From positions 44,691 through 108,690 of the forward strand of contig CAZXUO010000002.1 of the NCBI GenBank assembly GCA_964643955.1: DNA of 64,000 nt, in the 5' to 3' direction. The notes beneath the pieces are model-generated. The model had not been told where the DNA came from and did no database searches. It saw nothing but the letters and a program-made list of their open reading frames with translations. Origin of the DNA: an uncultured Candidatus Saccharibacteria bacterium. Lineage in GTDB: Bacteria; Patescibacteriota; Minisyncoccia; Phycocordibacterales; UBA918. Position 1 is the stretch's first letter. Each line of letters opens with the position of its first letter. The translations under genes were made by a program, and so were the position numbers. Positions 817-43,545 of this stretch are shown piece after piece.

Positions 817-3800
817 CGCTCGCTTTACAACCACATACATATATATGAGTGCGCTCACACGCGTATTCATCGTTTGTGCGCTTCTTATGGCGCTGTGTGG
901 TGGAGCGATTTTCAATACAACAAAAGCAGAGGCCGCATTTAATGCTGAGATTAACTACCAAGGAAAGCTCACGAACAGCAGCAATGCAGCGGTCGCGGAT
1001 GGTGAGTATGATATTGAGTTTAATTTGTATACCGTTGCTTCTGGTGGCGTCGCCATCTGGACAGAAACGCAGACAGTGCATGCGACGAGCGGCCTCTTTA
1101 GTGTCATGCTCGGAGACATCTCTTCGCTTTCAGGCGTTGATTTCAATCAGACGCTCTACCTCGGCGTAACCATCGAGGCTGATAGTGAGATGGCACCGCG
1201 CAAAGTACTCGGCGCAGTGCCAGCTGCGTTTCAAGCACAAGAGCTCGATGGCTTTACCGCATCACAATTTTTGCGTAGCGATGAGCCAGATACTATGGCG
1301 TCAACATCAGTGATGACGCTCCTTACCGTGACGCAGTCAGGTACCGGAAATATTCTTGATCTTAAAGACGGTGCGACGACGATCTTCACCGCAAAAGACG
1401 GGGGACATATCGGTATCGGCACGACGACAACGAGTGGTGCACGCCTCACGGTGCAAACATCAGGTACAACTGACATTTTGAATCTTCTTGAAACTGGCGG
1501 CACCGAAGTATTTACGGTACTCGAAAGTGGCAACGTTGGTATCGGCGACACATCGCCGTCGGCGCTCCTCACCGTCGGTACTGGCGATGCATTTCAAGTG
1601 AATTCTTCAGGAGCAATTGCCGCCGCAACCGGCATCACCTCAAGTGGCACGATTACGTTTAGCGGACTCACGAGCGGCCTCCTCTACGCAAATGGTTCAG
1701 GTGTACTTTCAGCGACCTCGACTCTCGCGTTGTCACTCATTCCCGATAAATTCCTCCGCAATGACGCGGACGATACGACGACGGGCCAGCTCACCGCAGC
1801 AAACTTCGTTGGTTCATCTTCGTCTGCGACCTCAACACTTGCAGGAAGTTTTGCAGTTGAGACCAATGGTCTTGTATACGACCGCACTACAAACTTCGTC
1901 GGTATCGGTACGGCAGCACCCGCGACTGTATTGCATCTTTCAAAGGCAACAGCTGGAACACAGGAGTTACTTCGTTTGCATAATAGCAGTACCAACGCCG
2001 CTGCGACCGCAGACATTCGCTTCAGACTTGGATCTTCAGGGAACGATACTGGCTTCATCAATCAAGGATGGAATGGTTCTGCAATGTACCTCTCGCTTGG
2101 CGCAGGTTCTCCTGCTGCTGAGGGCATCCGTATCGTCGGTGGCCGCGTCGGTATTGGCACCTCAACGCCTGCTGCAGAACTCCAGGTGCTTTCGACCACC
2201 GAGCAATTGCGGGTTGCGTACAATGCGTCAAATTATTACACCACAACCGTCGGCTCAACAGGCGGCGTCACACTCGACGCTGTAGGATCGGGAGCAGGAT
2301 TCACACTCTCAGACTCATTGACGATGAGCGGCACTTCGGCAAATATCCTCCTCGGCTCAAATTGGATTTCGGGTGACGGCGATGATGAGGGATTGTATGT
2401 TGCAAGTGACGGCGATGTAGGTGTCGGCACTTCAAGTCCACTCTGGGAGCTTCATGTCGACAAGACGCAGAACAAGGGTACCTATTTGAACCTCACAAAC
2501 TATTCTTCGGGCGCTTCTGCGCAAGCGGGCGTTTACGGCCAGACAGATTCGGCAAGTTATCTTGCGATTGCTCATGGGTCAGGTAGAACTACGCAGCGTT
2601 ATGGCTTCGCAGTTGGCGGTTGGGCGGAGATGCTCTCACTTACTGGTAGTGGACTCTTGGTCGGTACAGGCGCAAATGCAACACCAATTGTCTTCGGTAC
2701 AAATAGTACTGAGCGAATGAGAATCTTGAGCGATGGTAACGTCGGCATCGGCACCACTTCACCACTCACCAAACTTTCGGTACAAGGTAGCTCCCGCATC
2801 ACCGGCGATCTCTCGGTTGCAGGAATTACGGCAACATCGACAGTGACGGGTCTCAGGTTTATCGCGTCTTCAGCAACAGCAACTTCTACGCTTCCAGTGC
2901 TCTCAGTTACTGGTCGTCTCTACGATGCCTCCGGAAAGGGTGGTACGAGCGGCATGGTATTGCAGTCGACCGGCACGGGTATCAACTGGGTTGCAACCTC
3001 AACACTTGGTATCACTGCAGGTGGCGCAGGTGATGTTACTGCGGTCGGCGATTGTACAACGGGCGCATGTTTTGATGGTACGTCAGGCACAACGCTTACC
3101 TTCAACAACGCTGGTGGTGACAAGACACTTGTATTTGATGGCTCAAACTTCACCTTCAACGACGGTCTCATCGTGGATACACTCGACACGGGCCAAGGTG
3201 CAAATGAGCTCTATGACATGGATCAAAATGTTCTCACGACATCGGATGTGACCTTTAATTCGTTGACTCTCACCACTGATCTGTCTGTTGCAAACGGCGG
3301 TACCGGCGCATCGACACTCACTGGTCTTTTGCTCGGAAATGGCACCTCGCCATTTACAGCAACAACGTCACTTTCATCGTCATATATTGAAGACGCATAC
3401 GTTCGCAATACCGGCGACTCAATCTCAGGCAACCTCACCTTCAGTGGCTCTGCAGCAAATATTGCACTCGGCTCAAATTACCTTTCAGGTGATGGCGATG
3501 ACGAGGGCATCTTTGTATCGTCGGCGGGCAATGTCGGTATTGGTACGTCGTCGCCGCTCACGAAACTTTCTGTTCAAGGCGATTCGCGTATTACGGGAAA
3601 TCTTCAGGTTGCGGGCCTTACCGCAACATCAACCGTTACATTTGGCACACTCACTGATGCGCTCATTGTGACGAATTCGAGTGGCGTTCTTGCAGAATAC
3701 GCGGGCACCTCATGTCCGGGACAATTTGTGCAGTCGCTTTCAGCCCTTGGTGTTGCAAGTTGTGCATCAGGAGGTGGGTCGATTGCAACATCGACCGCGC

Positions 3801-4948
3801 TTGCGAATACGCAGATGATCTATGCAACTGGTGTCGGAACGATTGGTTCGGAAGCTGCATTTACGTACGACGCATCGACAAATACGCTCACGGTCGACGT
3901 GCTTGCACTCTCTGGCACCGGCACCCTCAATGGTGTTGATGTAATTGATGCGACGACCGAGAGTACGATTGAGGCTGCGATCGATACACTCGCAAACCTT
4001 ACTGCAGCGTCGTCGCTCGCGACGGTCGGTACCATCACGAGTGGTGTCTGGAACGGAACGGACATCGCCGTTTCAGACGGCGGTACGGGCGCGTCGACAC
4101 TCACCGGTCTTCTCCAAGGAAACGGTACGGGTGCCATTACGGGCATTACGGGTACTGCAGGACAAGTGCCGTACTACAACGGTACGAATACACTCCTCGC
4201 GACCTCATCAATCTTTATTGCAAGTGATGGAAAGATTGGTATCGGTACGACCTCGCCAGAGTACAGATTAGAGGTAGCAGACAGTACGTCTGCCCGCATA
4301 GCGGTGACTCAGAAAAGCAATAACGCAGTAGCCCCAGGATTTGAGTATCGAAAGATACGCGGAACCGGTGCGGTCACAAACGGAGATTTCCTCGGTCTGT
4401 TTAGTTATCAAGGATATGACGGGGATCAATATCTCAGGACTGCACATATTGCGGCGCGAATAAATGGAACAGTCGCAAATAACAGCATTCCAACAGATTT
4501 GATATTTGCAGCAGGGTCTACTGATGATCCAACCGTTTCCAATGAAGTGATGCGCGTTACGAGCGGCGGTACCGTTGCAATAGGTACGACGACATCAGTC
4601 GCAAAGCTCTCGATTCTCAACGCATCAAATCCGCAGCTTCAGCTTGGACAGAGTGGTAGTCTCTACACACGCATGCAGGTCGCAGCGTCGACTGGAGACA
4701 TGACACTCAGTCTCTCGACTGGTCAGGATATCTACATGACGCAGCCGGGTGGCTCAACTGGTGCCAATCTCTGGGTCTGCGAAGGTGATACGTGTCCATC
4801 AGTCACACTCACTGACGGAGGTAACATTGTAGCAGAAGGCGCATACTACTTTAGCAACGGCTACTACATGAAGGAGGCATCTTCAACCGCGGTTGGTCTC
4901 TACGACGACGTGGGCGATGCAATCATTCTCTTTGACGATGGAACCTAA
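809..4948 (+). CDS. Giant (1379 aa) secreted repeat protein with recurrent GNVGIGT(T/S)SP..KLSVQG modules and SGDGDDEG motifs; tail-fibre/adhesin-like
   Basis: N-terminal Sec signal peptide (MSALTRVFIVCALLMALCGG..AEA). At least 8 copies of the VGIGT-SP repeat. No catalytic motif. Overlaps the upstream gene by 8 nt. Confidence 0.6.
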   Translation: MHNARFTTTYIYMSALTRVFIVCALLMALCGGAIFNTTKAEAAFNAEINYQGKLTNSSNAAVADGEYDIEFNLYTVASGGVAIWTETQTVHATSGLFSVMLGDISSLSGVDFNQTLYLGVTIEADSEMAPRKVLGAVPAAFQAQELDGFTASQFLRSDEPDTMASTSVMTLLTVTQSGTGNILDLKDGATTIFTAKDGGHIGIGTTTTSGARLTVQTSGTTDILNLLETGGTEVFTVLESGNVGIGDTSPSALLTVGTGDAFQVNSSGAIAAATGITSSGTITFSGLTSGLLYANGSGVLSATSTLALSLIPDKFLRNDADDTTTGQLTAANFVGSSSSATSTLAGSFAVETNGLVYDRTTNFVGIGTAAPATVLHLSKATAGTQELLRLHNSSTNAAATADIRFRLGSSGNDTGFINQGWNGSAMYLSLGAGSPAAEGIRIVGGRVGIGTSTPAAELQVLSTTEQLRVAYNASNYYTTTVGSTGGVTLDAVGSGAGFTLSDSLTMSGTSANILLGSNWISGDGDDEGLYVASDGDVGVGTSSPLWELHVDKTQNKGTYLNLTNYSSGASAQAGVYGQTDSASYLAIAHGSGRTTQRYGFAVGGWAEMLSLTGSGLLVGTGANATPIVFGTNSTERMRILSDGNVGIGTTSPLTKLSVQGSSRITGDLSVAGITATSTVTGLRFIASSATATSTLPVLSVTGRLYDASGKGGTSGMVLQSTGTGINWVATSTLGITAGGAGDVTAVGDCTTGACFDGTSGTTLTFNNAGGDKTLVFDGSNFTFNDGLIVDTLDTGQGANELYDMDQNVLTTSDVTFNSLTLTTDLSVANGGTGASTLTGLLLGNGTSPFTATTSLSSSYIEDAYVRNTGDSISGNLTFSGSAANIALGSNYLSGDGDDEGIFVSSAGNVGIGTSSPLTKLSVQGDSRITGNLQVAGLTATSTVTFGTLTDALIVTNSSGVLAEYAGTSCPGQFVQSLSALGVASCASGGGSIATSTALANTQMIYATGVGTIGSEAAFTYDASTNTLTVDVLALSGTGTLNGVDVIDATTESTIEAAIDTLANLTAASSLATVGTITSGVWNGTDIAVSDGGTGASTLTGLLQGNGTGAITGITGTAGQVPYYNGTNTLLATSSIFIASDGKIGIGTTSPEYRLEVADSTSARIAVTQKSNNAVAPGFEYRKIRGTGAVTNGDFLGLFSYQGYDGDQYLRTAHIAARINGTVANNSIPTDLIFAAGSTDDPTVSNEVMRVTSGGTVAIGTTTSVAKLSILNASNPQLQLGQSGSLYTRMQVAASTGDMTLSLSTGQDIYMTQPGGSTGANLWVCEGDTCPSVTLTDGGNIVAEGAYYFSNGYYMKEASSTAVGLYDDVGDAIILFDDGT

Positions 4949-5771
4949 CACACACGAAGACGAGAATACAATTTCGTACATGGCGCTGCAGGTGATCGCA
5001 GAGCTTCGCGAATTTTTGCGTGTTATTCGCTCGTGGGTCTATCTGTGGTTTCTCTCGGCGTTCGTCATATTCTCACTCGGATTCAAGTGGCTTCTCTGGC
5101 GCGAGTACTCTATACCGGTACCGTCGTTTGAGGAAGTTTCGTTTGCAGCGCGCATCCTGATACATATGACGGAATTTCTTGTGCCGAGTGGTGTAACGCT
5201 CGTGGCGACCAATCCTTTTTCTGCGTTTGCAGCGCAAGTGCTCGTCTCAGCGCTCGCAGCACTCGTCGTGACATTTCCATTTCTTCTTTTGCGGGTGGTC
5301 GCGTATCTCTCTCCGGCACTCTATGCAAGCGAGCGTCGAGGACTCATGCTCGTACTCGGATTCGCATCAGTGCTTTTCGCAGGAGGGTGCACCTTCGGAT
5401 ATTTTATTGTGCTTCCAACCACGCTCCATTTCCTCTACGGATACGTGGGCGCACTCGGCGCGGTGCCGTTCTTTTCAGTGACCGAATTCATCGCGCTCGT
5501 GGTCTCATTTACCTTGGTCGCAGGTGTGTGTTTTCTCTTGCCGATCGTTATGGTCTCTGTGACCGCGCTCGGCATTATCCCGCATACGTTTTGGTGGCGA
5601 TCGTGGCGCAGTGCGCTTTTGCTTTTCCTTATTGCCTCTGCGATAATTACTCCAGACGGTAGTGGTGTAAGCATGCTCTTGCTCGCGTCACCGCTCTCGA
5701 TTTTATATGGCGTGGGCGCAGGCGTGAGTTCGTGGACGCGCGCGCGTGCAGACGTGCCGTTATCAGTCTAA
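4938..5771 (+). CDS. tatC: Sec-independent protein translocase TatC
   Basis: LQVIAELREFLRVI matches the TatC N-terminal HLxELRxRL signature and is followed by six predicted TM helices. The track start at 4893 is non-ATG; ATGs at 4938 or 4980 are possible. Confidence 0.8.
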   Translation: MEPNTHEDENTISYMALQVIAELREFLRVIRSWVYLWFLSAFVIFSLGFKWLLWREYSIPVPSFEEVSFAARILIHMTEFLVPSGVTLVATNPFSAFAAQVLVSALAALVVTFPFLLLRVVAYLSPALYASERRGLMLVLGFASVLFAGGCTFGYFIVLPTTLHFLYGYVGALGAVPFFSVTEFIALVVSFTLVAGVCFLLPIVMVSVTALGIIPHTFWWRSWRSALLLFLIASAIITPDGSGVSMLLLASPLSILYGVGAGVSSWTRARADVPLSV

Positions 5772-5783
5772 TGTTTCTATCAT

Positions 5784-6002
5784 ATGTTTGGTCTTGGACT
5801 TCCTGAAGTAATCATCATTGCACTTGCGGTCGCAATATTCTTTTTTGGCGGAAAGAAAATTGTCGAACTCTCACGTTCAATGGGACGGGTAAGTGGAGAA
5901 TTTAAGAAGGGGAAGATGGATATTGAACGGGAGCTCCGTGAGTCAGAGGGTGCGGTGATGCACGATGCGACGGTTGAAAAGACAACGACGGAATCAAAAT
6001 AG
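5784..6002 (+). CDS. tatA: Tat translocase subunit TatA/E
   Basis: MFGLGLPEVIIIALAVAIFFFGGKKIVELSRSMGRVSGEFKKG is the canonical TatA TM helix plus amphipathic helix. Confidence 0.8.
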   Translation: MFGLGLPEVIIIALAVAIFFFGGKKIVELSRSMGRVSGEFKKGKMDIERELRESEGAVMHDATVEKTTTESK

Positions 6003-6007
6003 CAGCT

Positions 6008-6295
6008 ATGTTCTTGAAGGCGTGGTTTAAAAAAGGTGGGCATACAAAAGATGAGCGCGAGACATCGCCTCGGGTTTTGAATATGCGCCGCCGCCGCCTC
6101 CTTCAATTTGGTGCGGTCGGCGGCGGCGCATTCCTCGTCGCGTGGTTCCTCCGCCCGCTGCTTTCGTTACTCAAAGAAGGTATCCCGTTTGAGAAAGAGA
6201 CTTTGTTCGAAAACTTTCGTGTGGTCGAAACGAATAAAGAACTCCAGTTTTACGACCGAAAATCGAACGAAGCGATTTTTATACTTGAGAAATAG
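6008..6295 (+). CDS. Small protein with twin-arginine signal-like motif (RRRRLLQFGAVGGGAFLVA); unknown function
   Basis: RR followed by a hydrophobic stretch sits immediately after tatA. The true start may be the internal Met at 6083. Confidence 0.4.
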   Translation: MFLKAWFKKGGHTKDERETSPRVLNMRRRRLLQFGAVGGGAFLVAWFLRPLLSLLKEGIPFEKETLFENFRVVETNKELQFYDRKSNEAIFILEK

Positions 6296-6298
6296 CGT

Positions 6299-7756
6299 AT
6301 GGCCATTCGCCTTTCCTCATCACGCATGGATGTGGGGGATAAGACGTTCCTCAAACCTGTCTTCAAAGATTATGGAGAAGTCCTCAATGATATGGGGCCT
6401 GGTGGCGGTACGCGTGATATCGATCTGACGCTTGGTAATGTCGTGACGGCAACCGTCTCTGGATCTACGACAACATTTACCTTTTCAAATCCATCTGCGT
6501 CTGGTACTGCGTGCAGCTTCACACTTGTGCTCACCAACGGCGGCTCACAGACGGTCAATTGGCCTGCTGCTGTTGAGTGGGTTGCAGGAGAAGCGCCGAC
6601 ATTGACGACCTCCGGTGTTGATATTTTGACGTTTGCGACGACCGACGCAGGTGCAACATGGATTGGGTTTTCTGGCGGCGGCGGTATCGCACACGATAGT
6701 ACGCTCTATGCATGGGGATTGGGTGGAAGCGGACAGCTCGGACAAGGCACCTCGGCGGTAGATCGTTCTTCTCCGGTTCAAGTTGGCTCGCTTGCAACAT
6801 GGGCTGAAGTTTCAGGAGGTATGTACCATGCGCTCGCATGTCGTGTTGATGGCACACTATGGGCATGGGGATCAAATGCAAACGGACGACTCGGCGATGG
6901 CACCACTACGAGTCGCTCTTCTCCGGTGCAGATCGGCTCACTTGCCACATGGAAAAAAGTTTCCGGCGGTGGCAATCATTCGATCGCTTTGAAATCAGAC
7001 GGCACACTGTGGGCATGGGGCCTCAATTATTCAGGTCAGCTTGCACAAGGCGATCTCACACTCCGTTCTTCACCGGTGCAGATCGGCTCACTTACGACGT
7101 GGATCGATATTGCTACAAGTGCGTATCATACGATGGCACTAAAGTCTGATAGTACGCTTTGGGTATGGGGATGGGGTGGTGCGGATGGTCGTCTTGGTGA
7201 TGGTACAACTGATGCGCGTTCTTCACCGGTGCAGATCGGCTCACTCGCAAATTGGAAATCGATCGCAACATCGTGGGATCATTCACTTGCTGTAAAAACT
7301 GACGGCACGCTCTGGGCGTGGGGCGATAATGCGCATGGACGCATTGGTGACGGTACGACGACGAACCGCTCTTCACCGGTGCAAATCGGATCATCAAATA
7401 CGTGGTCCGCGGCTTCTGGTGGGTACCATCATACGGTCGCATTGAAATCAGACGGCACACTGTGGGCGTGGGGGCGAGGTTCGTACGGACGTGTGGGCGA
7501 TGGCGCCTATACAAGTCGCTCTTCACCAGTGCAGATAGGCTCACTCACGAGTTGGGTTGCGATAAGCGCGGGCATGTACAGCTCACATGCGCTCCGTGCA
7601 GACGGCACTTTTTGGTCATGGGGAGGAGGCTATGGCGGTGCACTCGGCAACAATTCAATTACTGCAGTTGGATCTCCGGTACAAATCGGATCACTCACGA
7701 GTTGGAAGAAACTTTCTACGGGTCGAAGATCTACGTTTGGAATCCGACGGGTATAG
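6299..7756 (+). CDS. RCC1-repeat (beta-propeller) protein with conserved ~130-aa N-terminal beta-rich domain
   Basis: About seven repeats of GxLGxG..(N/D)RSSPVQ(V/I)GSL..W. The N-terminal domain (GNVVTATV..FTFSNP..TL.LTNGG..VNWP) is shared with the 7829 paralogue. Confidence 0.8.
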   Translation: MAIRLSSSRMDVGDKTFLKPVFKDYGEVLNDMGPGGGTRDIDLTLGNVVTATVSGSTTTFTFSNPSASGTACSFTLVLTNGGSQTVNWPAAVEWVAGEAPTLTTSGVDILTFATTDAGATWIGFSGGGGIAHDSTLYAWGLGGSGQLGQGTSAVDRSSPVQVGSLATWAEVSGGMYHALACRVDGTLWAWGSNANGRLGDGTTTSRSSPVQIGSLATWKKVSGGGNHSIALKSDGTLWAWGLNYSGQLAQGDLTLRSSPVQIGSLTTWIDIATSAYHTMALKSDSTLWVWGWGGADGRLGDGTTDARSSPVQIGSLANWKSIATSWDHSLAVKTDGTLWAWGDNAHGRIGDGTTTNRSSPVQIGSSNTWSAASGGYHHTVALKSDGTLWAWGRGSYGRVGDGAYTSRSSPVQIGSLTSWVAISAGMYSSHALRADGTFWSWGGGYGGALGNNSITAVGSPVQIGSLTSWKKLSTGRRSTFGIRRV

Positions 7757-7828
7757 TCCACGCTCCAAATTTTTTGTCCGTGGTATCATACAATTTACAT
7801 AGAGATTTTTCTCTTGGTGTACTAGTGT

Positions 7829-9283
7829 ATGGCCATTCGTCTTTCGTCATCGCGCATGGATATGAACGACAAGCCGCTCGAGCGGCCGGTCATTCGAGAT
7901 TATGGAGAAGCAGTGAATGCACTCGGTGGAGGGAGCGGTACGCGCGACATCAATCTCTCACTCGGCAATGTTGTCACGGCGACCGTCACCGGTACTACCA
8001 CCTTTACTTTTTCAAATCCGACGCCCGCGGGCACTGCGTGTACGTTTACCCTGATGCTCACCAACGGTGGTGCTCATACCGTCAATTGGCCTACGGCAGT
8101 GAAGTGGGCAAATACAGAAAATAATGTTGCGCCGACACTTAATAGTGCGGGGGTGGATGTACTCACTTTTTTAACAACGGATGTGGGGCTGACATGGTAT
8201 GGATTTTCAGGCACTGCGGTTGAAGATAATGACACCCTCTGGGCATGGGGTTTAAATAATGAGGGAAATCTAGGTGTGGGTGATACAGCTAATCGTTCTT
8301 CACCTGTACAAGTTGGTTCGCTGTTGACACGCTCAACAGCGAAAGCTGGCCTTGTGCACGCAACAACGCTTCGCTCAGACGGCACCCTCTGGACGTGGGG
8401 GAGAAATGATGAGGGTCAGCTCGGTCAAGGGGATGTGGCGGATAGATCCTCGCCTGTACAAATCGGTTCGCTTACGACATGGTCGCAAATTGCAACAGGA
8501 CAAACGCAGACACTTGCCATCCAGTCAGATGGCACGCTCTGGGCATGGGGGCGCAATGGACTTGGTCGTCTTGGTGACGGTACGACAACGAACCGCTCTT
8601 CACCGGTACAGATTGGCTCGCTTACGACGTGGTCAAAGGTAGCGACCGGATATGTTCATTCTGCTGCAATCCAGACAGATGGCACCTTGTGGGTCTGGGG
8701 TGAGGCAACCAGATTGGCAACGGATGTTGTGGGTAATCGCTCTTCACCGGTACAGATTGGCTCGCTTACGACGTGGTCAAAGGTAGCGACCGCCGTCAAT
8801 CATACATTGGCACTCAAAACAGACGGTACGCTCTGGGCGTGGGGAGTCGGTACGGTAGGTCAGCTTGGAGAAGGAACCAGTGCTGTTAATCGCTCTTCAC
8901 CTGTACAAGTCGGTTCGCTCACCACGTGGTCAACTATTGCCGGAGGAAATAATGTCTCTTTAGCATTAAAGTCCGATAATACCCTCTGGGCATGGGGAAG
9001 TAATTCAAGCGGGCAGTTAGGGCTTGGTGATACTGCAAATCGTTCTTCACCCGTACAAGTTGGTTCGCTTACAACATGGTCAGTAATAGCTCCTGGAGAT
9101 ACCCACGTGCTCGCTATCCAGTCAGACGGCACCCTCTGGGCGTGGGGAAATGGCGCAAGCGGTGGCCTTGGTCTTGGTGATACTGCAAATCGTTCTTCGC
9201 CTGTACAAGTTGGTTCACTCACGACGTGGCGTGCAGCTTCGGTCGGCACAACTTTCTCGGTTGCAAATAAGCGAGGTGCTTAG
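7829..9283 (+). CDS. RCC1-repeat protein paralogue (with N-terminal domain)
   Basis: About 70% identical to 6299..7756 in the N-domain, with the same RCC1 repeat periodicity. Confidence 0.8.
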   Translation: MAIRLSSSRMDMNDKPLERPVIRDYGEAVNALGGGSGTRDINLSLGNVVTATVTGTTTFTFSNPTPAGTACTFTLMLTNGGAHTVNWPTAVKWANTENNVAPTLNSAGVDVLTFLTTDVGLTWYGFSGTAVEDNDTLWAWGLNNEGNLGVGDTANRSSPVQVGSLLTRSTAKAGLVHATTLRSDGTLWTWGRNDEGQLGQGDVADRSSPVQIGSLTTWSQIATGQTQTLAIQSDGTLWAWGRNGLGRLGDGTTTNRSSPVQIGSLTTWSKVATGYVHSAAIQTDGTLWVWGEATRLATDVVGNRSSPVQIGSLTTWSKVATAVNHTLALKTDGTLWAWGVGTVGQLGEGTSAVNRSSPVQVGSLTTWSTIAGGNNVSLALKSDNTLWAWGSNSSGQLGLGDTANRSSPVQVGSLTTWSVIAPGDTHVLAIQSDGTLWAWGNGASGGLGLGDTANRSSPVQVGSLTTWRAASVGTTFSVANKRGA

Positions 9284-9326
9284 TTTTCAGATTTCTGTTT
9301 TCAAAAATAGTTTATAATTCTTTTGT

Positions 9327-10418
9327 ATGCCGCGTTTTCCAAAACCACGTGTAAACGGTACCCTCTGGATGTGGGGCAATGGTGCAAATGGTCGCCTTGG
9401 TATGGGTGATACGGTAAGTCACTCATCACCGGTACAAGTTGGTTCACTCAATACGTGGACGTTTGTTGCGCTAGGCGCTGAAAGCACATTTGGAATTCAA
9501 TCCAACGGTACCCTCTGGGCATGGGGGAATAATGTAAACGGACGACTCGGTGATGGTACTACGACGAGTCGCTCGTCGCCGGTACAAGTTGGTTCACTCA
9601 ATACGTGGAAGATGGTCGCTCCGGCAGAATTTCACACACTTGGAATAAGGACCGACGGTACGCTCTGGGCATGGGGCCGGGGCACATATGGAGTGCTTGG
9701 GCAAGCTACAAATAATAATAGCCAATCATCTCCGGTACAAGTCGGCTCACTCACGACCTGGGTGAATGCTTCGGTTGGAGAACAACATTCGCACGGGATA
9801 CGTTCGAACAGTGTGCTGTTTAGTTGGGGAGAAGGGGCGAATGGACGACTTGGCGGCGGTAATCAAACAGATCGTTCATCTCCCGTTCAAGTTGGTACAG
9901 GAACAATTTGGTCTCTTGTTTCAGGTACCAATCGACATTCACATGGCCTAACACATGATGGTCGATTGTTTTTCTGGGGATACAATGCAAACGGTTACGC
10001 GACTTCTGGAAATGGTGCTTACAACCAACGCTCATCTCCGGTGCAGGTTGGCTCACTTGTGGAGTGGATGCATGTCTCAAACGGAAATGGTCATTCACAT
10101 GCGATTCGTTCAAACGGCACACTGTGGTCATGGGGTCGTTATTACAATGGTTCACAAGGAACGAGTGATAACACAACGCGCAACTCTCCCGTACAAGTCG
10201 GCTCGCTCTCAACATGGAGTGATGTTTCTGCAGGAAAAGATCATAGTATCGGGTTGCGTGTAGATGGCGCGCTGTTTGGCTGGGGGGCAGCCGGAAGCGG
10301 TCAACTTGGACAAGGAAATACCACAGAATTTAACTCTCCTGTTCAAGTCGGCTCACTCACAACGTGGGTTCAGCCAGCAGCAGGTGGATCTCATTCTGCG
10401 GCACTTCGAAGAGGCTAG
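9327..10418 (+). CDS. RCC1-repeat protein paralogue lacking the N-terminal domain
   Basis: Only RCC1 repeats (RSSPVQVGSL..W). No obvious RBS, and a TATAAT 7 nt upstream suggests a leaderless start. Confidence 0.65.
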   Translation: MPRFPKPRVNGTLWMWGNGANGRLGMGDTVSHSSPVQVGSLNTWTFVALGAESTFGIQSNGTLWAWGNNVNGRLGDGTTTSRSSPVQVGSLNTWKMVAPAEFHTLGIRTDGTLWAWGRGTYGVLGQATNNNSQSSPVQVGSLTTWVNASVGEQHSHGIRSNSVLFSWGEGANGRLGGGNQTDRSSPVQVGTGTIWSLVSGTNRHSHGLTHDGRLFFWGYNANGYATSGNGAYNQRSSPVQVGSLVEWMHVSNGNGHSHAIRSNGTLWSWGRYYNGSQGTSDNTTRNSPVQVGSLSTWSDVSAGKDHSIGLRVDGALFGWGAAGSGQLGQGNTTEFNSPVQVGSLTTWVQPAAGGSHSAALRRG

Positions 10419-10420
10419 AT

Positions 10421-11170
10421 ATGCGTTTAGATATCGTTTTACGTACGCATGATGGAGGCGATGTGCATCCTGACACAGGAAGATTTTTATCAGTGCCAAA
10501 AAAAGAAATTGTAAAGAGAAGTGTGCGATCGCTCCATGAGTCATCAAAATTAGCGGCAGGAACAGATATCACTTTTCATATCATTGATGATCATTCGTCG
10601 AGCGAGACGGTTGATTTTCTAAATACCATTATTGAAGTAGAGCCGCTTTCCGGGACGGGCAACAATGCTTCATGGCTTCGTGCATTTGAACGTGCGCGGG
10701 ATAGCGAAGCTGATGCCGTGTATCTTGTTGAAGACGATTATCTTCATGCTCCTGAAGCACTCCGCGAAATGGTCTTTTTCTATCAGGATGCGCGCGAGAA
10801 AAGCAGAGGAAGGGAGATGGTGCTCTGTCCGTATGATGATTTTTTCAACTATGTACACGGACCTGATAAAACGGGATACGTCGTACCGGGACGTGAGCGG
10901 CACTGGCGCACAAATACATATACCGCTGGGACGTTTTTTATTTCTCCGAAGATTGTGCGTGAACATTGGGAAAAATTTGAGCGGCTTGCAACGCTCTATG
11001 AGACGCCGCAGGGTAAAGCTGAAAAAGTACATGAAGAGACGACGCTTGCGCGTATCTGGATGGAAGGATATGCAACACTCTTCACACCGTTACCATCGCT
11101 TGCGGTCCATCTCAATCAAAATATCCCGCCGCTTTTTGATTGGAAGACGTTGTGGGAGAAGTATGCTTGA
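10421..11170 (+). CDS. Glycosyltransferase, GT-A fold (GT2-like), DxD motif VEDDY
   Basis: The core (HWRTNTYTAGTFF..) is homologous to the N-terminal domain of the 23727..25145 gene. The track start at 10364 is non-ATG and overlaps the upstream gene, so it is trimmed to the ATG at 10421. Confidence 0.6.
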   Translation: MRLDIVLRTHDGGDVHPDTGRFLSVPKKEIVKRSVRSLHESSKLAAGTDITFHIIDDHSSSETVDFLNTIIEVEPLSGTGNNASWLRAFERARDSEADAVYLVEDDYLHAPEALREMVFFYQDAREKSRGREMVLCPYDDFFNYVHGPDKTGYVVPGRERHWRTNTYTAGTFFISPKIVREHWEKFERLATLYETPQGKAEKVHEETTLARIWMEGYATLFTPLPSLAVHLNQNIPPLFDWKTLWEKYA

Positions 11171-11179
11171 ATAGGGCGC

Positions 11180-11860
11180 ATGAAGACGCTCGTCCTCGCG
11201 ATCGCGATCGGAGACTACTACCAGAAGATGGGAGAAATAACGCACCCACTTATGCGCGCATATGCAGAGCGCGTCAGCGCTGATTTTATGGTGATTACGG
11301 AGAAGAAAATCTCACAGACATCGGCGCATTGGGAGAAGTTTCAGATACATGACTTGCTTGATACGTATGATCGAATTCTTTTTCTCGATACGGATATTAT
11401 TGTGCGCGGCGATTGTCCAAACCTTTTTGAGGCCGTACCGGATGATGCATTTGGTGCATTTGATGAATCACGCTATTACACCGATGCGTGCGAGCGTATG
11501 GAGCTCACGGCGCGGGAGTATGAGATGGAGGTGATGGAAGCATGGGATGGTCGATATTTTAATACGGGCGTGATGGTGATCTCGCGCGCGCATCAAAAAG
11601 TATTCCAAAAGCCGCCGCGAGAATTTGATAATTTTTATGAGCAGACCTACCTCAATCTTGTGTTTGTGCGAGAAGGTGTACGTATGTTCCCGCTCGATTT
11701 TCGTTTCAATAGAATGCATCCAATGAACGCACACACCGGTGAACCGCGTCTTTCTTCATATATTGTGCATTACGCGGGATATACTGCCGAGGAGCCTGAG
11801 ATGGTGTTTGATTATATTCGGGAGGATATAGAGCGCTGGATGAAGCGGGGCGTGCTCTAG
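11180..11860 (+). CDS. Nucleotide-sugar glycosyltransferase, GT-A fold (GT8/GT32-like), DTD motif
   Basis: LFLDTDIIV DxD motif with a Rossmann-like N-terminus. Confidence 0.5.
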   Translation: MKTLVLAIAIGDYYQKMGEITHPLMRAYAERVSADFMVITEKKISQTSAHWEKFQIHDLLDTYDRILFLDTDIIVRGDCPNLFEAVPDDAFGAFDESRYYTDACERMELTAREYEMEVMEAWDGRYFNTGVMVISRAHQKVFQKPPREFDNFYEQTYLNLVFVREGVRMFPLDFRFNRMHPMNAHTGEPRLSSYIVHYAGYTAEEPEMVFDYIREDIERWMKRGVL

Positions 11861-11907: not shown

Positions 11908-13836
11908 ATGCAGAAAGACCTTCTTGACCAGCAGCTCGACGCGAATCTTCATGGAAATTTTGAAGAGGGATGGCGCATTGCACAAATTCTTGAGCATGAA
12001 CGGCCCAATGATAACCGAGCGGCATTTAATCGCGGCTGGCATTATCTTTCGCGTGGTGATTTGCAAAAAGGAATGGATCTCATGGATCGGGGGCGATATG
12101 AGGGTGTCTTTGGATCGCCGCCACTTAAGACGGAGAAGCCTATTTGGGATGGAAAAGTATCACTTGTTGGGAAGACGTTGCTGCTCCGTGGAGAGGGAGG
12201 ATTTGGTGACGAGATCATTCATGCGCGTTTTGCGAAGGGTTTTGCGGAGCGCGGAGCGCGGGTGATACTTGCGTGTTCTCCTGAACTTGCGTCGCTCTTA
12301 TCGCGCGTCGAGGGTGTGTCTGAGGTGGTATCGCGCGCGGTGCCGGAACATCTTCTTTTTGATTATTGGGTTCCGGCGATGAGTGCAGCACGTATTCTTG
12401 GTTATACTTTCGAGACGCTCCCGAATGCCCCCTATATTTTTGCGAAAGAAGAAAAGGTGCGTGAACATGCGCTTGCGGGTATTCATAAAGTAGGTATCCG
12501 CTGGTCAGGGAATCCGCGCTTTGAACACGAACAGCACCGACGTTTTCCTGCGGAGCCTTTGTTTGAACTACGACACGGGAAAGATGTGACGCTCTACTCG
12601 CTTCAGCGTGATCACGATCTTCGCGATGTGCCCGAAGGTATCATTGATCTCGAAAAAAAGATGGCGACGTGGGAGGACACGGCGGGTGTGATTGCGAATC
12701 TCGATCTCGTCATCACGTCGTGCACCTCGATCGCGCATCTTGCTGCTGCGATGGGAAAAGAAACGTGGGTCATTACGCCGGTGCTCCCGTACTATATTTG
12801 GGCACAGCCGGGTGAGCGGAGTGCGTGGTATAAGACTGTGCATCTCTTCAGGCAAGAAAGGTTTGGCGATTGGGAAGCGCCGCTTGTTGCAGTTGCGCGT
12901 GCATTTGAAGCACGCTTCGGAGTTGTGTTGCCAACTGAGCGTGAACACGTCCATACTGTTTCTCCTGCTGAATCGTCGCATGGACTCGTCGGCTCATCGG
13001 AAGAAAACGTCGTGCGTCCGCGTGCGCGTGTATCGGAACAGAAAAAGACGATTCATTTTGTATCAGGACTCCCGCGCTCTGGTTCGACGATGTTGATCTC
13101 TCTTCTTTCTCAAAATCCGCGCATACATGGTGCACCGATTTCAGGACTTGCAGGTATTTTTACCGGCATTTACGCAAATTGGGATAAAAATGAATTTCAT
13201 GTTGAGAGCCCCAATGAGACAGCAAAGCGTGCGGTGCTCGCTTCAGTACTCGACGCATATTATGCGCATATTGATAAGCTGATCATCCTTGATAAGGATC
13301 GGTCGTGGGTGTCGCGGATTGCGCTTCTTGAGGATATTTTAGAGCGCGAGGTGAAGATTATTTTACCGGTGCGACCGATCATCGAGATCCTTGCATCATT
13401 TGAGACATTGCGACTCAAGAACCCAACTGATCTTACGGGTGCAGATGAGGCGCTCGGACCGACTTCGACGATTCCGGGACGCGCTGAATATTTTATGAGT
13501 CCGAGCGGAACAATTGGTTTACCTTTCCATTCGATGAAAGATGCGGTGACGACGGGATACCTCGATCGACTTTTGTTTGTTGATTACAACAAACTCATGT
13601 CTGCGCCAAAAGCACAGCTCAAACGCATCTACGAGTTTCTTGAAGAGCCGTCATTTGAACACGATTTTCAAAATATCACTCGGCCTGGTGAGAGTAATCC
13701 AAAAATACATAAATTTCCTGGGCTTCATGACGTACGGCCGAAGTTTGAACGTATCTCCCGCAATCCGCGCTCGCTGCTTGGTGATGATGTGATCGATCGC
13801 TATGGGCAGCCGGATCCGTGGGCGCAGTGGACGTAA
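11908..13836 (+). CDS. Fusion protein: N-terminal GT9 (heptosyltransferase-family) glycosyltransferase domain plus C-terminal sulfotransferase (Sulfotransfer_3-like) domain
   Basis: GT9 signatures LLLRGEGGFGDEIIH and ITSCTSIAHLAAAMGKETWVITPV. Sulfotransferase 5'-PSB-like GLPRSGSTML plus a downstream VRPIIEILAS motif. Confidence 0.6.
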   Translation: MQKDLLDQQLDANLHGNFEEGWRIAQILEHERPNDNRAAFNRGWHYLSRGDLQKGMDLMDRGRYEGVFGSPPLKTEKPIWDGKVSLVGKTLLLRGEGGFGDEIIHARFAKGFAERGARVILACSPELASLLSRVEGVSEVVSRAVPEHLLFDYWVPAMSAARILGYTFETLPNAPYIFAKEEKVREHALAGIHKVGIRWSGNPRFEHEQHRRFPAEPLFELRHGKDVTLYSLQRDHDLRDVPEGIIDLEKKMATWEDTAGVIANLDLVITSCTSIAHLAAAMGKETWVITPVLPYYIWAQPGERSAWYKTVHLFRQERFGDWEAPLVAVARAFEARFGVVLPTEREHVHTVSPAESSHGLVGSSEENVVRPRARVSEQKKTIHFVSGLPRSGSTMLISLLSQNPRIHGAPISGLAGIFTGIYANWDKNEFHVESPNETAKRAVLASVLDAYYAHIDKLIILDKDRSWVSRIALLEDILEREVKIILPVRPIIEILASFETLRLKNPTDLTGADEALGPTSTIPGRAEYFMSPSGTIGLPFHSMKDAVTTGYLDRLLFVDYNKLMSAPKAQLKRIYEFLEEPSFEHDFQNITRPGESNPKIHKFPGLHDVRPKFERISRNPRSLLGDDVIDRYGQPDPWAQWT

Positions 13837-16126: not shown

Positions 16127-16145
16127 ATTGGGATAAGTGAACGGT

Positions 16146-16180
16146 ATAACGCACCTCGGTGCGTTATACTTTTTGTATGA
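16146..16180 (+). terminator. Intrinsic terminator overlapping the gap start
   Basis: ggtataacgcacc-tcg-ggtgcgttatac hairpin followed by TTTTTG. Confidence 0.5.
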
Positions 16181-42792: not shown

Positions 42793-42793
42793 C

Positions 42794-43471: not shown

Positions 43472-43510
43472 TCGTGAAGAAAAGAAGGGTGCCTACGGGT
43501 GCCGAAACTT

Positions 43511-43544
43511 GCGCGGGGACCCCTAGGGGAACCCGCGCTTTTAT
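43511..43544 (+). terminator. Intrinsic terminator between island genes 2 and 3
   Basis: gcgcggggacccctaggggaacccgcgctttt. Confidence 0.6.
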
Positions 43545-43545
43545 A

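What the first reader, a model, noticed from the sequence alone, without database searches (positions are those of the whole stretch)
11908..13836. Unusual fusion of a GT9 heptosyltransferase-family domain with a sulfotransferase domain
Residues ~85-330 carry both GT9 signatures (GGFGDEIIH and the SIAHLAAAMGKETWVITPV nucleotide-sugar site). Residues ~360-640 carry sulfotransferase PAPS-binding-like motifs (GLPRSGSTML). Bacterial carbohydrate sulfotransferases are rare (NodH, Stf0 and similar), and a single polypeptide predicted to both add a sugar and sulfate it is not a standard architecture. GT9 enzymes normally act on LPS cores in didermic bacteria, whereas this organism appears monoderm (sortase present, no LPS genes seen).
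Basis: partly seen in the sequence, partly recalled or inferred. Interest (0 to 1): 0.5.

Follow-up and report, generated by a model that had tools for sequence, protein, structure and literature searches.

The report
GT9-like–sulfotransferase enzyme beside RCC1 adhesins
This is a real two-domain enzyme, with a heptosyltransferase-like sugar-adding domain tethered to a sulfate-adding domain, and it belongs to a large uncharacterised gene cassette that sits next to RCC1-propeller, tail-fibre-like proteins in phages, ultra-small Patescibacteria and predatory Bdellovibrio, which suggests an unrecognised way of decorating attachment proteins with sulfated sugars.

Summary

The architecture is not rare. 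Of the 120 best homologues, 53 are GT9-like–ST and 61 are the permuted ST–GT9-like order. In most phage contigs the two are adjacent separate genes.

The main finding is context. After dereplication, 35 of 37 phage loci have an RCC1-repeat gene ending within 300 bp upstream of the GT9-like gene, inside the tail-fibre module. The pairing recurs in Patescibacteria (including this window), Bdellovibrionota and other phyla. Some phage cassettes also carry ADP-heptose genes (HldE, HldD), GT25/GT2-like enzymes and methyltransferases.

Best reading, inferred and not shown: a cytoplasmic enzyme that glycosylates RCC1-propeller fibre or adhesin proteins, probably with a heptose, and sulfates the product. 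No characterised member was found. I rate it a new variant of a known kind (protein heptosylation), with moderately high interest.

The parts
11908..13836 (+). Fusion ORF of 642 aa: TPR-like helices, GT9-like GT-B domain, flexible linker and PAPS-type sulfotransferase
11920..12102 (+). N-terminal four-helix TPR-like module (aa 5-65)
   Evidence: Helices H5-14, H18-31, H36-48 and H52-65 in the model. Pfam TPR_16 E 0.036. The family profile matches consensus TPR proteins at E 6.6e-4.
12160..12927 (+). GT9-like GT-B glycosyltransferase domain (aa ~85-340). Motifs: EGGFGDE (D101), R211-x-F-P, and S271-C272-T273-x-x-x-H277.
12934..13035 (+). Disordered interdomain linker (aa 343-376), variable in length among homologues
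   Evidence: pLDDT below 50. Homologues P0022 and P0031 have 70-90 extra residues here.
13045..13833 (+). Sulfotransferase domain (aa 380-642). Motifs: 5'-PSB loop G387-L-P-R390-S-G-S-T394, 3'-PB R489...S497, and K463.
6299..7756 (+). RCC1-repeat propeller protein (485 aa) with an N-terminal phage tail-fibre-type domain (aa ~30-130). Candidate substrate or partner.
   Evidence: Pfam RCC1/WD40_RLD. PHROG tail-fibre families phrog_9017 and phrog_7760 at E about 1e-13.
7829..9283 (+). RCC1-repeat propeller protein (484 aa) with the same N-terminal tail-fibre-type domain
9327..10418 (+). RCC1-repeat propeller protein (363 aa). Collinear with the second half of an 843-aa orthologue in L007.
10421..11170 (+). 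GT2-like glycosyltransferase. Homologues recur 2-4 kb downstream of the GT9-like gene in 33 loci.
   Evidence: Pfam Glycos_transf_2 at 22.9 bits, just under the cut-off. Neighbourhood cluster 3.
11180..11860 (+). GT8-family glycosyltransferase (226 aa)
   Evidence: Pfam Glyco_transf_8 at 44.8 bits
13902..15029 (+). RCC1-repeat propeller protein (375 aa, seven blades each with an R-S-S-P-V-Q motif), immediately downstream of the fusion gene
809..4948 (+). 1379-aa secreted, tail-fibre-like protein at the head of the co-directional block
   Evidence: PHROG tail-fibre families phrog_9942 (E 2e-22) and phrog_18345. Signal-peptide-like N-terminus. Synteny with L002, L006, L007, L009 and L010.
4893..6295 (+). 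tatC (4893-5771), tatA (5784-6002) and a 95-aa protein with a twin-arginine signal (6008-6295). Syntenic with the fusion gene in other Patescibacteria.
   Evidence: Pfam TatC. Sequences. Same order in L002 and L006 and in L007.
16143..16170 (+). Strong terminator-like hairpin (12-bp stem plus T run) closing the co-directional block

Best explanation
The ORF encodes a soluble cytoplasmic bifunctional tailoring enzyme.

Its GT9-like GT-B domain, preceded by a short TPR-like module, transfers a sugar from a nucleotide donor onto the neighbouring RCC1-repeat, tail-fibre-like proteins. The donor is most likely ADP-heptose or a close relative. The repeated (R/K)-S-S/T-P-V-Q motif in each propeller blade is the candidate acceptor site. 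This would be a protein O-glycosylation of the TibC/Aah type.

The tethered sulfotransferase domain then uses PAPS to sulfate the product, most likely the added sugar. The adjacent GT2-like and GT8 enzymes would extend the glycan. The outcome would be sulfated glyco-adhesins used for attachment to other cells.

Shown:
- the two folds
- conservation of the donor and PAPS motifs
- the fusion and its permutation
- the near-obligate adjacency to RCC1 genes across phages and several bacterial phyla
- ADP-heptose genes in some phage cassettes

Inferred:
- the acceptor is a protein
- the identity of the sugar
- the order of the two reactions
- the sulfate goes onto the sugar
For: 1. Fold and motifs.
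- The GT9 family gives the top GT-B hits, well separated from other GT-B families.
- D101 is invariant and aligns with the WaaC catalytic Asp13. R211 is invariant and aligns with Lys192 of the K-x-W-P motif. T273 and H277 align with the DTGxxH motif.
- The sulfotransferase 5'-PSB and 3'-PB motifs and K463 (aligned with TPST Lys158) are conserved.

2. Functional coupling of the two domains.
- They are fused in both orders: 53 N-ST and 61 ST-N among the 120 best hits.
- They are adjacent separate genes in 51 of 80 phage loci.
- There are also GT9-like–methyltransferase and ST–GT9-like–methyltransferase fusions.

3. Coupling to RCC1 proteins.
- After dereplication at 80% identity, an RCC1 ORF lies within 300 bp upstream in 35 of 37 viral loci and within 3 kb in 37 of 37. 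In genome loci it lies within 3 kb in 30 of 48.
- The loci include Patescibacteria, a complete Bdellovibrio bacteriovorus genome, Planctomycetota, Bacteroidota and Methylococcales.
- Two isolated cyanophages, BUCT-ZZ01 and S-SRM01, have RCC1 directly upstream of the GT9-like gene in the tail-fibre region.
- L076 is a genuine T4-like myovirus locus in which the cassette lies between the tail fibre/assembly chaperone and the neck/gp15 genes.

4. The RCC1-associated clade has a diagnostic Cys (S-C-T) where other GT9-like proteins have Asp. Relatives with Asp (L063-L066) lack RCC1 neighbours.

5. ADP-heptose supply. HldE-like genes (NF008454 E 8e-87; TIGR02199 182.5 bits against a cut-off of 181.5), HldD-like genes (TIGR02197 E 1e-60 to 1e-65) and a cupin isomerase lie within 5 kb in 15 viral loci, with or without ST.

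6. The protein has no signal peptide or membrane segment visible in the sequence. The RCC1 partners also lack signal peptides. Cytoplasmic modification before export or assembly is therefore feasible.

7. RCC1 blades next to GT9-like genes carry S (80%)-S (86%)-P (97%) across about 2,500 blades (not dereplicated). Phage RCC1 proteins without a GT9-like neighbour lack this motif.
Against: - No biochemical data exist. The link to RCC1 is guilt by association.
- The S-S-P motif may be only a subfamily signature, because the associated RCC1 proteins are also each other's closest relatives.
- The WaaC Asp261 equivalent, a sugar-binding residue, is Cys272 in this clade, so the donor may not be ADP-heptose.
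- ADP-heptose genes are present in only 4 of 32 dereplicated viral loci. None was found in the window, and no PAPS genes either.
- The Pfam GT9 threshold is not met.
- The nearest solved relatives of the ST domain are protein tyrosine sulfotransferases, which leaves direct protein sulfation open.
- Some close homologues lack RCC1 neighbours. L062 follows 2001- and 777-aa non-RCC1 proteins, and L006 has only a 130-aa tail-fibre-domain protein upstream.
- Phage tail-fibre regions are known hot spots for accessory genes (my own knowledge), which could inflate adjacency within phages.
- Some MAG contigs may be mis-binned phage DNA.
Confidence: 0.45

Rival explanations
1. The enzyme acts on a non-protein glycan and not on the RCC1 proteins. 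In cells the target would be an envelope glycolipid or wall polymer of the producer. In phages it would be the LPS or capsule of the infected host, for example to block superinfection or stop progeny sticking to debris. The RCC1 propellers would be lectin-like binders of that glycan, and the genes would travel together because receptor-binding protein and receptor chemistry co-evolve. This is analogous to SLH-domain proteins and the pyruvyl transferase CsaB.
For: - Characterised GT9 enzymes other than TibC/Aah act on LPS cores (established knowledge).
- GT25, named by Pfam as an LPS biosynthesis protein family, together with GT2-like and GT8 enzymes and ADP-heptose genes, are typical of LPS-type glycan loci.
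- Tail-fibre regions of T4-like phages accumulate accessory genes (own knowledge).
Against: - The cassette occurs in Patescibacteria, where no LPS genes are seen in the window.
- The GT9-like gene is immediately downstream of the RCC1 gene (within 300 bp) in 35 of 37 independent phage loci and across at least five bacterial phyla. That is tighter than is usual for receptor-modification genes.
- The protein has no membrane segment visible in the sequence.
- The N-terminal TPR-like module is typical of protein-directed glycosyltransferases such as OGT and FlmG (PMC7591256; one search lists OGT TPR hits).
Confidence: 0.25
2. Both domains act on the RCC1/fibre proteins but independently. The GT9-like domain glycosylates them. 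The TPST-like domain sulfates amino-acid side chains directly (Tyr, or Ser/Thr, or hydroxylated residues) and not the sugar.
For: - K463 aligns with the TPST catalytic Lys158.
- Related phage STs at 33-39% identity occur without any GT9-like gene, next to Kelch-type propeller proteins in 26 of 58 loci.
- Iyer et al. 2010 predicted operons in which sulfotransferases modify phage tail-collar or collagen-like proteins (PMC2938197).
Against: - The TPST catalytic base Glu99 aligns with a non-acidic position (P/I/S410-412).
- RCC1 blades have no conserved Tyr and no acidic Tyr motif.
- The ST gene is optional within an otherwise constant GT9-like/RCC1 pair, and methyltransferases take its place as fusion partners. 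That is the pattern expected for glycan tailoring.
- The ST-alone loci still carry a glycosyltransferase (A197-like GT-A) nearby in 27 of 58 loci.
- A weak NCBIfam hit points to NoeE, a sugar sulfotransferase.
Confidence: 0.15
3. The GT9-like domain is a non-catalytic scaffold or chaperone for assembly of RCC1 fibres, in the way a tail-fibre assembly gene follows its fibre gene. Only the sulfotransferase would be an enzyme.
For: - Its position immediately after a fibre-like gene resembles tail-fibre assembly chaperones.
- The Pfam GT9 score is sub-threshold.
- The sugar-binding Asp is replaced by Cys.
Against: - The candidate catalytic and donor-binding residues D101, R211, T273 and H277 are invariant in the 50 full-length same-order homologues of A1, which share 38-87% identity with the query.
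- Phage loci already encode a dedicated Phage_tail_APC chaperone upstream.
- ADP-heptose biosynthesis genes co-locate with the gene.
Confidence: 0.05

Closest known systems
TibC / Aah bacterial autotransporter heptosyltransferases (BAHT) with their adhesins TibA / AIDA-I
   Different: About 15% identity. Whether the iron-finger motif or the dodecameric assembly is present was not tested. The partner is an RCC1 beta-propeller fibre and not an autotransporter beta-helix. There is an added TPR-like module and a fused sulfotransferase. Cys replaces the conserved Asp of the DTG motif.
LPS heptosyltransferases WaaC / WaaF and the Veillonella GT9 protein 3tov (CAZy GT9, Pfam PF01075)
   Different: Below the Pfam gathering score (13.5 against 22). 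The N-terminal Rossmann half is shortened. The Asp261 equivalent is Cys. The genomic context is tail-fibre-like proteins and not LPS core genes. The host lineage appears to lack LPS.
Tyrosylprotein sulfotransferases TPST1 / TPST2 (Pfam Sulfotransfer_3). Bacterial RaxST is cited from my own knowledge.
   Different: 14-19% identity. The catalytic Glu99 is not conserved in the alignment. No Tyr-acidic acceptor motif is seen in the neighbouring proteins. It is fused to a glycosyltransferase.
Bacterial carbohydrate sulfotransferases (NodH, NoeE, Stf0)
   Different: Much more distant than the TPSTs. Those enzymes act on lipo-chitooligosaccharides or trehalose and are not fused to a glycosyltransferase.
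FlmG, the TPR + GT-B flagellin O-glycosyltransferase of Caulobacter (PMC7591256)
   Same: A TPR module followed by a GT-B catalytic domain. It is a cytoplasmic protein glycosyltransferase whose TPR part recognises the protein substrate.
   Different: The sequence relationship was not tested here. FlmG has a long TPR domain, transfers pseudaminic acid to flagellins and has no sulfotransferase.
Predicted hydroxylase–sulfotransferase–PAPS synthase operons with phage tail-collar or collagen-like proteins (Iyer et al. 2010, PMC2938197)
   Same: A bioinformatic prediction that sulfotransferases encoded next to phage-fibre-like proteins modify those proteins. PAPS supply genes are found in the operon.
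   Different: Those operons use 2OG-Fe dioxygenases to create the hydroxyl acceptor. They contain no GT9-like enzyme and no RCC1 proteins, and the substrate families differ.

Membership tests
Glycosyltransferase family 9 (Pfam PF01075 / CAZy GT9) | Scores above the Pfam Glyco_transf_9 gathering threshold | tested here: not met
   13.5 bits against a cut-off of 22, E 0.046, aa 258-285 only. Giant multi-copy relatives do pass cumulatively, at 59-118 bits.
Glycosyltransferase family 9 (Pfam PF01075 / CAZy GT9) | GT-B fold closest to solved GT9 structures | tested here: met
Glycosyltransferase family 9 (Pfam PF01075 / CAZy GT9) | Catalytic Asp in the G-D motif after strand 1 (WaaC Asp13) | tested here: met
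   D101 is invariant in 50/50 sequences. It aligns with D13 in the global hhalign, although that part of the alignment has low confidence.
Glycosyltransferase family 9 (Pfam PF01075 / CAZy GT9) | Basic residue of the K-x-W-P donor-phosphate motif (WaaC Lys192) | tested here: inconclusive
   R211-R-F-P matches the motif pattern and R211 is invariant, but the alignment there has low confidence.
Glycosyltransferase family 9 (Pfam PF01075 / CAZy GT9) | Asp of the D-T-G-x-x-H motif that binds the heptose (WaaC Asp261) | tested here: not met
   Cys272 in 46/50 sequences and in 77/80 viral homologues. Thr273 and His277 are kept. The wider TPR–GT9-like family has Asp.
Glycosyltransferase family 9 (Pfam PF01075 / CAZy GT9) | Uses ADP-heptose as donor | not testable with these tools
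   Indirect support only: HldE-like, HldD-like and cupin isomerase genes lie next to the gene in 15 viral loci. None was found in the window.
PAPS-dependent sulfotransferases (Pfam PF13469 / PF00685) | Scores above the Pfam gathering thresholds | tested here: met
   Sulfotransfer_3 42.6 bits (cut-off 27). Sulfotransfer_1 37.3 bits (cut-off 22).
PAPS-dependent sulfotransferases (Pfam PF13469 / PF00685) | 5'-phosphosulfate-binding loop and 3'-phosphate-binding motif | tested here: met
   G387-L-P-R390-S-G392-S-T394, with G387, P389 and G392 invariant. V488-R489 invariant, followed by S497.
PAPS-dependent sulfotransferases (Pfam PF13469 / PF00685) | Identifiable catalytic base (Glu or His) | tested here: inconclusive
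   TPST Glu99 aligns with non-acidic residues. The invariant E499 and the nearly invariant H585 are candidates but remain unassigned.
Tyrosylprotein sulfotransferase (TPST / RaxST type) | Catalytic tetrad Arg78 / Glu99 / Lys158 / Ser285 (TPST2 numbering; own knowledge of the family) | tested here: not met
   The Arg equivalent (R390) and the Lys equivalent (K463) are present. The Glu99 position is not acidic. Ser285 was not mapped.
Tyrosylprotein sulfotransferase (TPST / RaxST type) | Acidic Tyr-containing acceptor peptide in the partner protein | tested here: not met
   No position in the 52-column RCC1 blade profile has Tyr above 15%. Other regions of the partner proteins were not examined.
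BAHT protein O-heptosyltransferases (TibC/Aah) | Encoded next to the repeat-rich adhesin it modifies | tested here: met
   Analogous arrangement: RCC1-repeat genes flank the gene in the window, and an RCC1 gene lies within 300 bp upstream in 35 of 37 dereplicated phage loci.
BAHT protein O-heptosyltransferases (TibC/Aah) | Iron-finger motif and dodecameric assembly | not tested
   No residue-level structural alignment or oligomer prediction was available.
BAHT protein O-heptosyltransferases (TibC/Aah) | Transfers heptose to Ser/Thr of the adhesin | not testable with these tools
   Needs mass spectrometry or an in vitro assay.

The most novel reading that the evidence does not exclude
Phages, Patescibacteria episymbionts and predatory Bdellovibrionota all have to attach to other bacteria. 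They may share a previously unrecognised post-translational system in which a dedicated Cys-variant GT9-like enzyme heptosylates every blade of RCC1-propeller receptor-binding proteins, and partner sulfotransferases and methyltransferases then decorate the sugar. The result would be sulfated glyco-propellers that tune host recognition. This would be the first sulfated protein glycan on a phage fibre or bacterial adhesin, and the first function for prokaryotic and viral RCC1 proteins.
Probability: 0.3. Interest if true: 0.8.

Novelty: new variant of a known kind. Interest (0 to 1): 0.62.

Why it matters
- RCC1-like proteins in phages and bacteria have no known function. One phage paper states this explicitly (PMC7247149).
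- The GT9-like clade described here has no Pfam or PHROG family.
- If the cassette glycosylates and sulfates propeller-type fibres, it adds a new class of protein substrate to bacterial O-heptosylation. It would also introduce sulfation into phage and adhesin biology, and would give a handle on host recognition in uncultivated Patescibacteria and in environmental phages.
- The idea is directly testable in cultured systems found here: cyanophages S-SRM01 and BUCT-ZZ01, Bdellovibrio bacteriovorus Bd16, and Methylocucumis oryzae Sn10-6.

Tried and rejected
- **Rarity of the fusion.** Rejected. Both domain orders are abundant.
- **Sequence search of the whole protein against the PDB.** It gave only a marginal TPST hit (E 0.94). 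A family profile and fold searches were needed.
- **Local hhalign against WaaC/WaaF.** It aligned only the C-terminal 41 columns. The global mode extends to the N-terminal G-D motif but with low confidence.
- **PAPS and ADP-heptose genes in the window.** None was found by Pfam or by tblastn with E. coli CysC and CysN and the phage HldE, HldD and kinase-nucleotidyltransferase proteins. The rest of the genome is not available.
- **Link between the phage kinase + nucleotidyltransferase gene ('APSK-NT') and ST.** Raw counts are 24/48 ST-positive loci against 0/17 ST-negative loci (p 9e-5). After dereplication they are 5/21 against 0/11 (p 0.14), so I do not claim it.
- **Literature searches.** Searches for RCC1 + sulfotransferase + phage, sulfotransferase + heptosyltransferase + TPR, RCC1 + Bdellovibrio + glycosyltransferase, heptosyltransferase + tail fibre, and RCC1 + Patescibacteria found no description of this system. 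One apparent hit was Roscoff Culture Collection strain numbers.
- **Cluster look-up for organism names.** It returned none.
- **Prophage reading of the window.** Considered and not favoured. The block is syntenic with tatC/tatA and housekeeping genes in several Patescibacteria.
Full report

Yes. The window has a single uninterrupted ORF at 11908..13836 (+) encoding 642 aa. The three quoted motifs are present: GGFGDEIIH at aa 97-105, SIAHLAAAMGKETWVITPV at aa 274-292 and GLPRSGSTML at aa 387-396.

Pfam supports the sulfotransferase half above its curated thresholds. Sulfotransfer_3 scores 42.6 bits (cut-off 27) and Sulfotransfer_1 scores 37.3 bits (cut-off 22), over aa 384-590.

Pfam gives only a sub-threshold match to Glyco_transf_9: 13.5 bits (cut-off 22), aa 258-285. 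There is also a weak TPR hit at aa 18-61. NCBIfam adds only marginal matches, to NoeE over the PAPS loop and to heptosyltransferase I over the C-terminal motif.

**2. Structure**

I built an AlphaFold2 model from 50 full-length homologues (alignment A1). Its mean pLDDT is 88.3. It shows four parts:
- four N-terminal helices (aa 5-65)
- a two-lobed Rossmann-type domain (aa ~85-340)
- a disordered linker (aa 343-376)
- a P-loop sulfotransferase domain (aa 381-642)

*N-terminal catalytic domain.* Its closest folds are GT9 enzymes: 3tov 17.2, WaaF 16.6, WaaC 15.8 and the protein heptosyltransferase TibC 15.6. Other GT-B families score 11 or less.

A family profile searched against PDB sequences gives TPST1 at E 2.5e-7 and consensus TPR proteins at E 6.6e-4.

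**3. Functional residues**

*GT9-like half.* Profile alignment to E. coli WaaC/WaaF (sequences fetched) aligns the C-terminal motif confidently (hhalign E 1.5e-5). In global mode it places:
- D101 on the WaaC catalytic Asp13
- R211-x-F-P on the K192-x-W-P motif
- S-C272-T273-x-x-x-H277 on D261-T-G-x-x-H

D101, R211, T273 and H277 are invariant in 50/50 homologues. The Asp261 equivalent is Cys in 46/50.

*Sulfotransferase half.* The PAPS 5'-PSB loop (G387, P389 and G392 invariant; R390 in 41/50), the 3'-PB Arg489 (50/50) and K463 (45/50, aligned with TPST Lys158) are conserved. The TPST catalytic Glu has no acidic counterpart in the alignment.

Both halves therefore look catalytically competent. 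The sugar-binding pocket differs from that of LPS heptosyltransferases.

**4. How common is the fusion?**

It is common. A search of 5.8 billion protein clusters returned 1,219 relatives among the 8,000 candidates scored. Of the 120 best, 53 have the query's domain order and 61 have the reverse order, with the sulfotransferase first (about 590 aa). One hit (P0077) is ST–GT9-like–methyltransferase. Source names are only 'sulfotransferase' or 'hypothetical protein'.

The GT9-like domain on its own belongs to a very large family. It has 34,026 representatives at E of 0.001 or better among 1.84 billion 50%-identity cluster representatives. These include giants of 1,200-3,100 aa with 3-6 copies interleaved with TPRs.

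In IMG/VR, 434 viral contigs encode a relative. Among the best 80:
- the two domains are adjacent separate genes, in the same order, in 51
- they are fused in 3
- the sulfotransferase is absent in 24
- the remaining 2 have ST and GT9-like as adjacent genes in the reverse order, or ST elsewhere in the locus

The window's protein is therefore the fused form of a common two-gene unit. The reverse-order fusions show that fusion happened at least twice.

**5. The decisive context: RCC1-repeat genes**

In the window the gene sits in a co-directional block, in this order:
- 1379-aa tail-fibre-like secreted protein
- tatC
- tatA
- 95-aa twin-arginine protein
- three RCC1-repeat proteins
- GT2-like enzyme
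- GT8 enzyme
- the fusion
- a fourth RCC1-repeat protein
- Pro/Glu-rich membrane protein
- strong terminator-like hairpin

Two of the RCC1 proteins carry an N-terminal domain that matches phage tail-fibre PHROGs at E about 1e-13.

I scanned every fetched locus by tblastn. After dereplication at 80% identity:
- An RCC1 ORF ends within 300 bp upstream of the GT9-like gene in 35 of 37 viral loci, and within 3 kb in 37 of 37.
- In GTDB genome loci an RCC1 ORF lies within 3 kb in 30 of 48. Most of the exceptions are short contigs or distant relatives.

The genome loci span several groups:
- Patescibacteria (MAGs labelled Nomurabacteria, Paceibacterota, Taylorbacteria and 'Saccharibacteria')
- more than 30 Bdellovibrionota, including the complete genome of B. 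bacteriovorus Bd16, where a stand-alone GT9-like gene precedes two RCC1 proteins of about 1,080 aa
- Planctomycetota, Bacteroidota and Methylococcales

Two isolated cyanophages show the same arrangement in their tail-fibre regions. In BUCT-ZZ01 the RCC1 protein is annotated as 'BNR repeat' and the GT9-like protein is fused to a methyltransferase. The other phage is S-SRM01.

L076 is a genuine T4-like myovirus locus with terminase, tail sheath, gp15 and neck protein. There the order is tail fibre, tail assembly chaperone, RCC1 protein, GT9-like, ST, methyltransferase.

**6. A clade marker**

All RCC1-associated GT9-like proteins examined carry S-C-T-S-x-A-H. These are from the window, Bd16, a phage, BUCT-ZZ01, Planctomycetota and Bacteroidota. 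The wider TPR–GT9-like family has the canonical D-T. So do the genome loci that lack RCC1 neighbours (L063-L066).

**7. Accessory genes**

I clustered all neighbouring ORFs and annotated representatives. This shows a modular cassette.

*Glycan extension and tailoring.* GT25, a GT2-like enzyme (homologous to window 10421-11170) and methyltransferases recur.

*ADP-heptose supply.* In 15 viral loci there is a trio of genes:
- an HldE-like heptose-7-P kinase/heptose-1-P adenylyltransferase (NF008454 E 8e-87; TIGR02199 182.5 bits against a cut-off of 181.5)
- an HldD-like ADP-heptose 6-epimerase (TIGR02197 E 1e-60 to 1e-65, below the equivalog cut-off but by far the best match)
- a cupin isomerase

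The trio occurs with or without the sulfotransferase. It is the best available evidence that the GT9-like enzyme uses an ADP-heptose-type donor. It is present in only 4 of 32 dereplicated viral loci and not in the window.

*Possible PAPS supply.* A kinase + nucleotidyltransferase gene with weak APS-kinase similarity occurs only in ST-positive loci. The association is not significant after dereplication.

**8. Candidate acceptor site**

About 2,500 blades (not dereplicated) from RCC1 proteins next to GT9-like genes share (R/K)-S(80%)-S(86%)-P(97%)-V-Q(85%). RCC1 proteins of phages that lack a GT9-like gene have different residues at these positions. Those phages infect Clostridioides, Brevibacillus and Pseudomonas, and the set includes a Helicobacter prophage.

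This fits a repeated Ser/Thr acceptor, as in AIDA-I/TibA repeats. It could equally be a plain subfamily signature.

**9. Mechanism proposed (confidence 0.45)**

I propose a cytoplasmic protein O-glycosyltransferase. It is GT9-like, probably transfers heptose, and may be guided to its substrate by the TPR-like module. It would act on RCC1-propeller fibre or adhesin proteins before export or virion assembly. The tethered sulfotransferase would then sulfate the added sugar. The GT2-like and GT8 enzymes (GT25 and methyltransferases in phages) would extend or decorate the glycan.

The folds, motifs, fusions and gene linkage are shown. The acceptor, the donor, the order of reactions and the site of sulfation are inferred.

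**10. Rivals**

- (a) The enzymes modify an envelope or host glycan that the RCC1 propellers bind (0.25).
- (b) The TPST-like domain sulfates the protein directly (0.15).
- (c) The GT9-like domain is a non-catalytic assembly factor (0.05).

Rival (b) gains from two points. First, TPSTs are the nearest solved relatives. Second, there is a side finding from an IMG/VR scan with the ST domain alone. ST relatives at 40% identity or more are all next to GT9-like + RCC1. In 58 loci at 33-39% identity there is no GT9-like gene and no RCC1 gene. In 26 of those 58 the ST is followed by a Kelch-type propeller protein, and 27 of them still have an A197-like GT-A glycosyltransferase nearby.

**11. Comparison with what is known, and novelty**

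The closest characterised system in logic is TibC/Aah heptosylation of autotransporter adhesins. The closest in fold are the GT9 enzymes and the TPSTs.

Membership of GT9 in the strict sense is not established, because the Pfam threshold and the Asp261 equivalent are not met. Membership of the PAPS sulfotransferase superfamily is established.

No paper in the searchable library describes this cassette. The nearest precedent is the 2010 prediction of hydroxylase–sulfotransferase operons acting on tail-collar or collagen-like proteins. A phage paper states that prokaryotic RCC1 proteins have no known function.

I rate this a new variant of a known kind, with interest 0.62.

**12. Caveats**

- All functional statements rest on comparative genomics and predicted structure.
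- Some MAG contigs may be mis-binned phage DNA.
- Counts from IMG/VR cover only the best 80 loci per scan.
- Only 64 kb of the source genome could be examined.

Noticed in passing
window 4893-6295: tatC, tatA (72 aa) and a 95-aa protein with a twin-arginine signal (RRRRLLQFGAVGG) lie between the 1379-aa tail-fibre-like gene and the RCC1 genes. The order big protein, TatC, TatA, small protein, then the fusion is conserved in other Patescibacteria (L002, L006, L007, L009, L010). This hints that folded, possibly pre-glycosylated proteins of this block are exported by Tat.
   Followed up: partly
window 809-4948: 1379-aa protein with a signal-peptide-like N-terminus, Gly/Thr/Ser-rich repeats and matches to phage tail-fibre PHROGs (phrog_9942 E 2e-22), inside a cellular genome of Patescibacteria type.
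   Followed up: partly
window 7829-9283 and 9327-10418: These two RCC1 ORFs are collinear with a single 843-aa orthologue in L007 (5845-8376). In the window they are separated by a 43-bp AT-rich spacer and lie in different frames. This is either a genuine gene split or a decayed gene.
   Followed up: partly
L099 9483-11747 (-); also L090, L096-L100, L110-L112, L131, L140, L141, L143, L146, L147: Phage cassettes carry HldE-like, HldD-like and cupin-isomerase genes, a compact ADP-heptose pathway, beside the GT9-like gene. The isomerase is a cupin and not a GmhA-type SIS protein.
   Followed up: partly
L118 6943-7782; L004 13300-14112; 29 loci in all: A protein of about 275 aa combines a P-loop kinase (weak APS-kinase similarity) with a nucleotidyltransferase domain (NMN-adenylyltransferase-like). 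It occurs only in loci that also have the sulfotransferase. It may be a minimal PAPS synthase. The association is not significant after dereplication (p 0.14).
   Followed up: partly
L174-L232 (e.g. L209 2503-4299; L192 5503-6159): More distant phage sulfotransferases (33-39% identity) have no GT9-like or RCC1 neighbour. In 26 of 58 loci they are followed by a Kelch-type beta-propeller protein of about 600 aa. In 27 of 58 they are accompanied by an A197-like GT-A glycosyltransferase. The theme 'sulfotransferase + glycosyltransferase + propeller protein' therefore recurs with different families.
   Followed up: partly
P0121-P0265 (representative search): Giant proteins of 1,200-3,140 aa contain 3-6 tandem copies of the GT9-like domain interleaved with long TPR arrays. 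Their organisms and function are unknown.
   Followed up: no
L068 (Synechococcus phage BUCT-ZZ01, ON615601.1) 4707-8572: The protein annotated 'BNR repeat domain protein' is an RCC1-repeat protein by tblastn and blade HMM. The following 'hypothetical protein' (571 aa) is a GT9-like–methyltransferase fusion.
   Followed up: yes
window ~42000-44400: A GC-rich island (0.62 against about 0.51 elsewhere) with long overlapping ORFs on both strands and no Pfam match. It may be horizontally acquired.
   Followed up: no
window 44546-47143 (sortase at 39818-40474): 865-aa protein with (Gly-Asp)n runs, a Pro/Thr/Glu-rich linker and four repeated modules of about 100 aa, followed by a membrane segment. 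It has no Pfam match and lies near a sortase gene.
   Followed up: no
L062 (Bdellovibrio sp. HCB337) 1573-10987: Here the GT9-like gene follows 2001-aa and 777-aa proteins that have no RCC1 blades. The partner protein is therefore not always an RCC1 propeller.
   Followed up: partly
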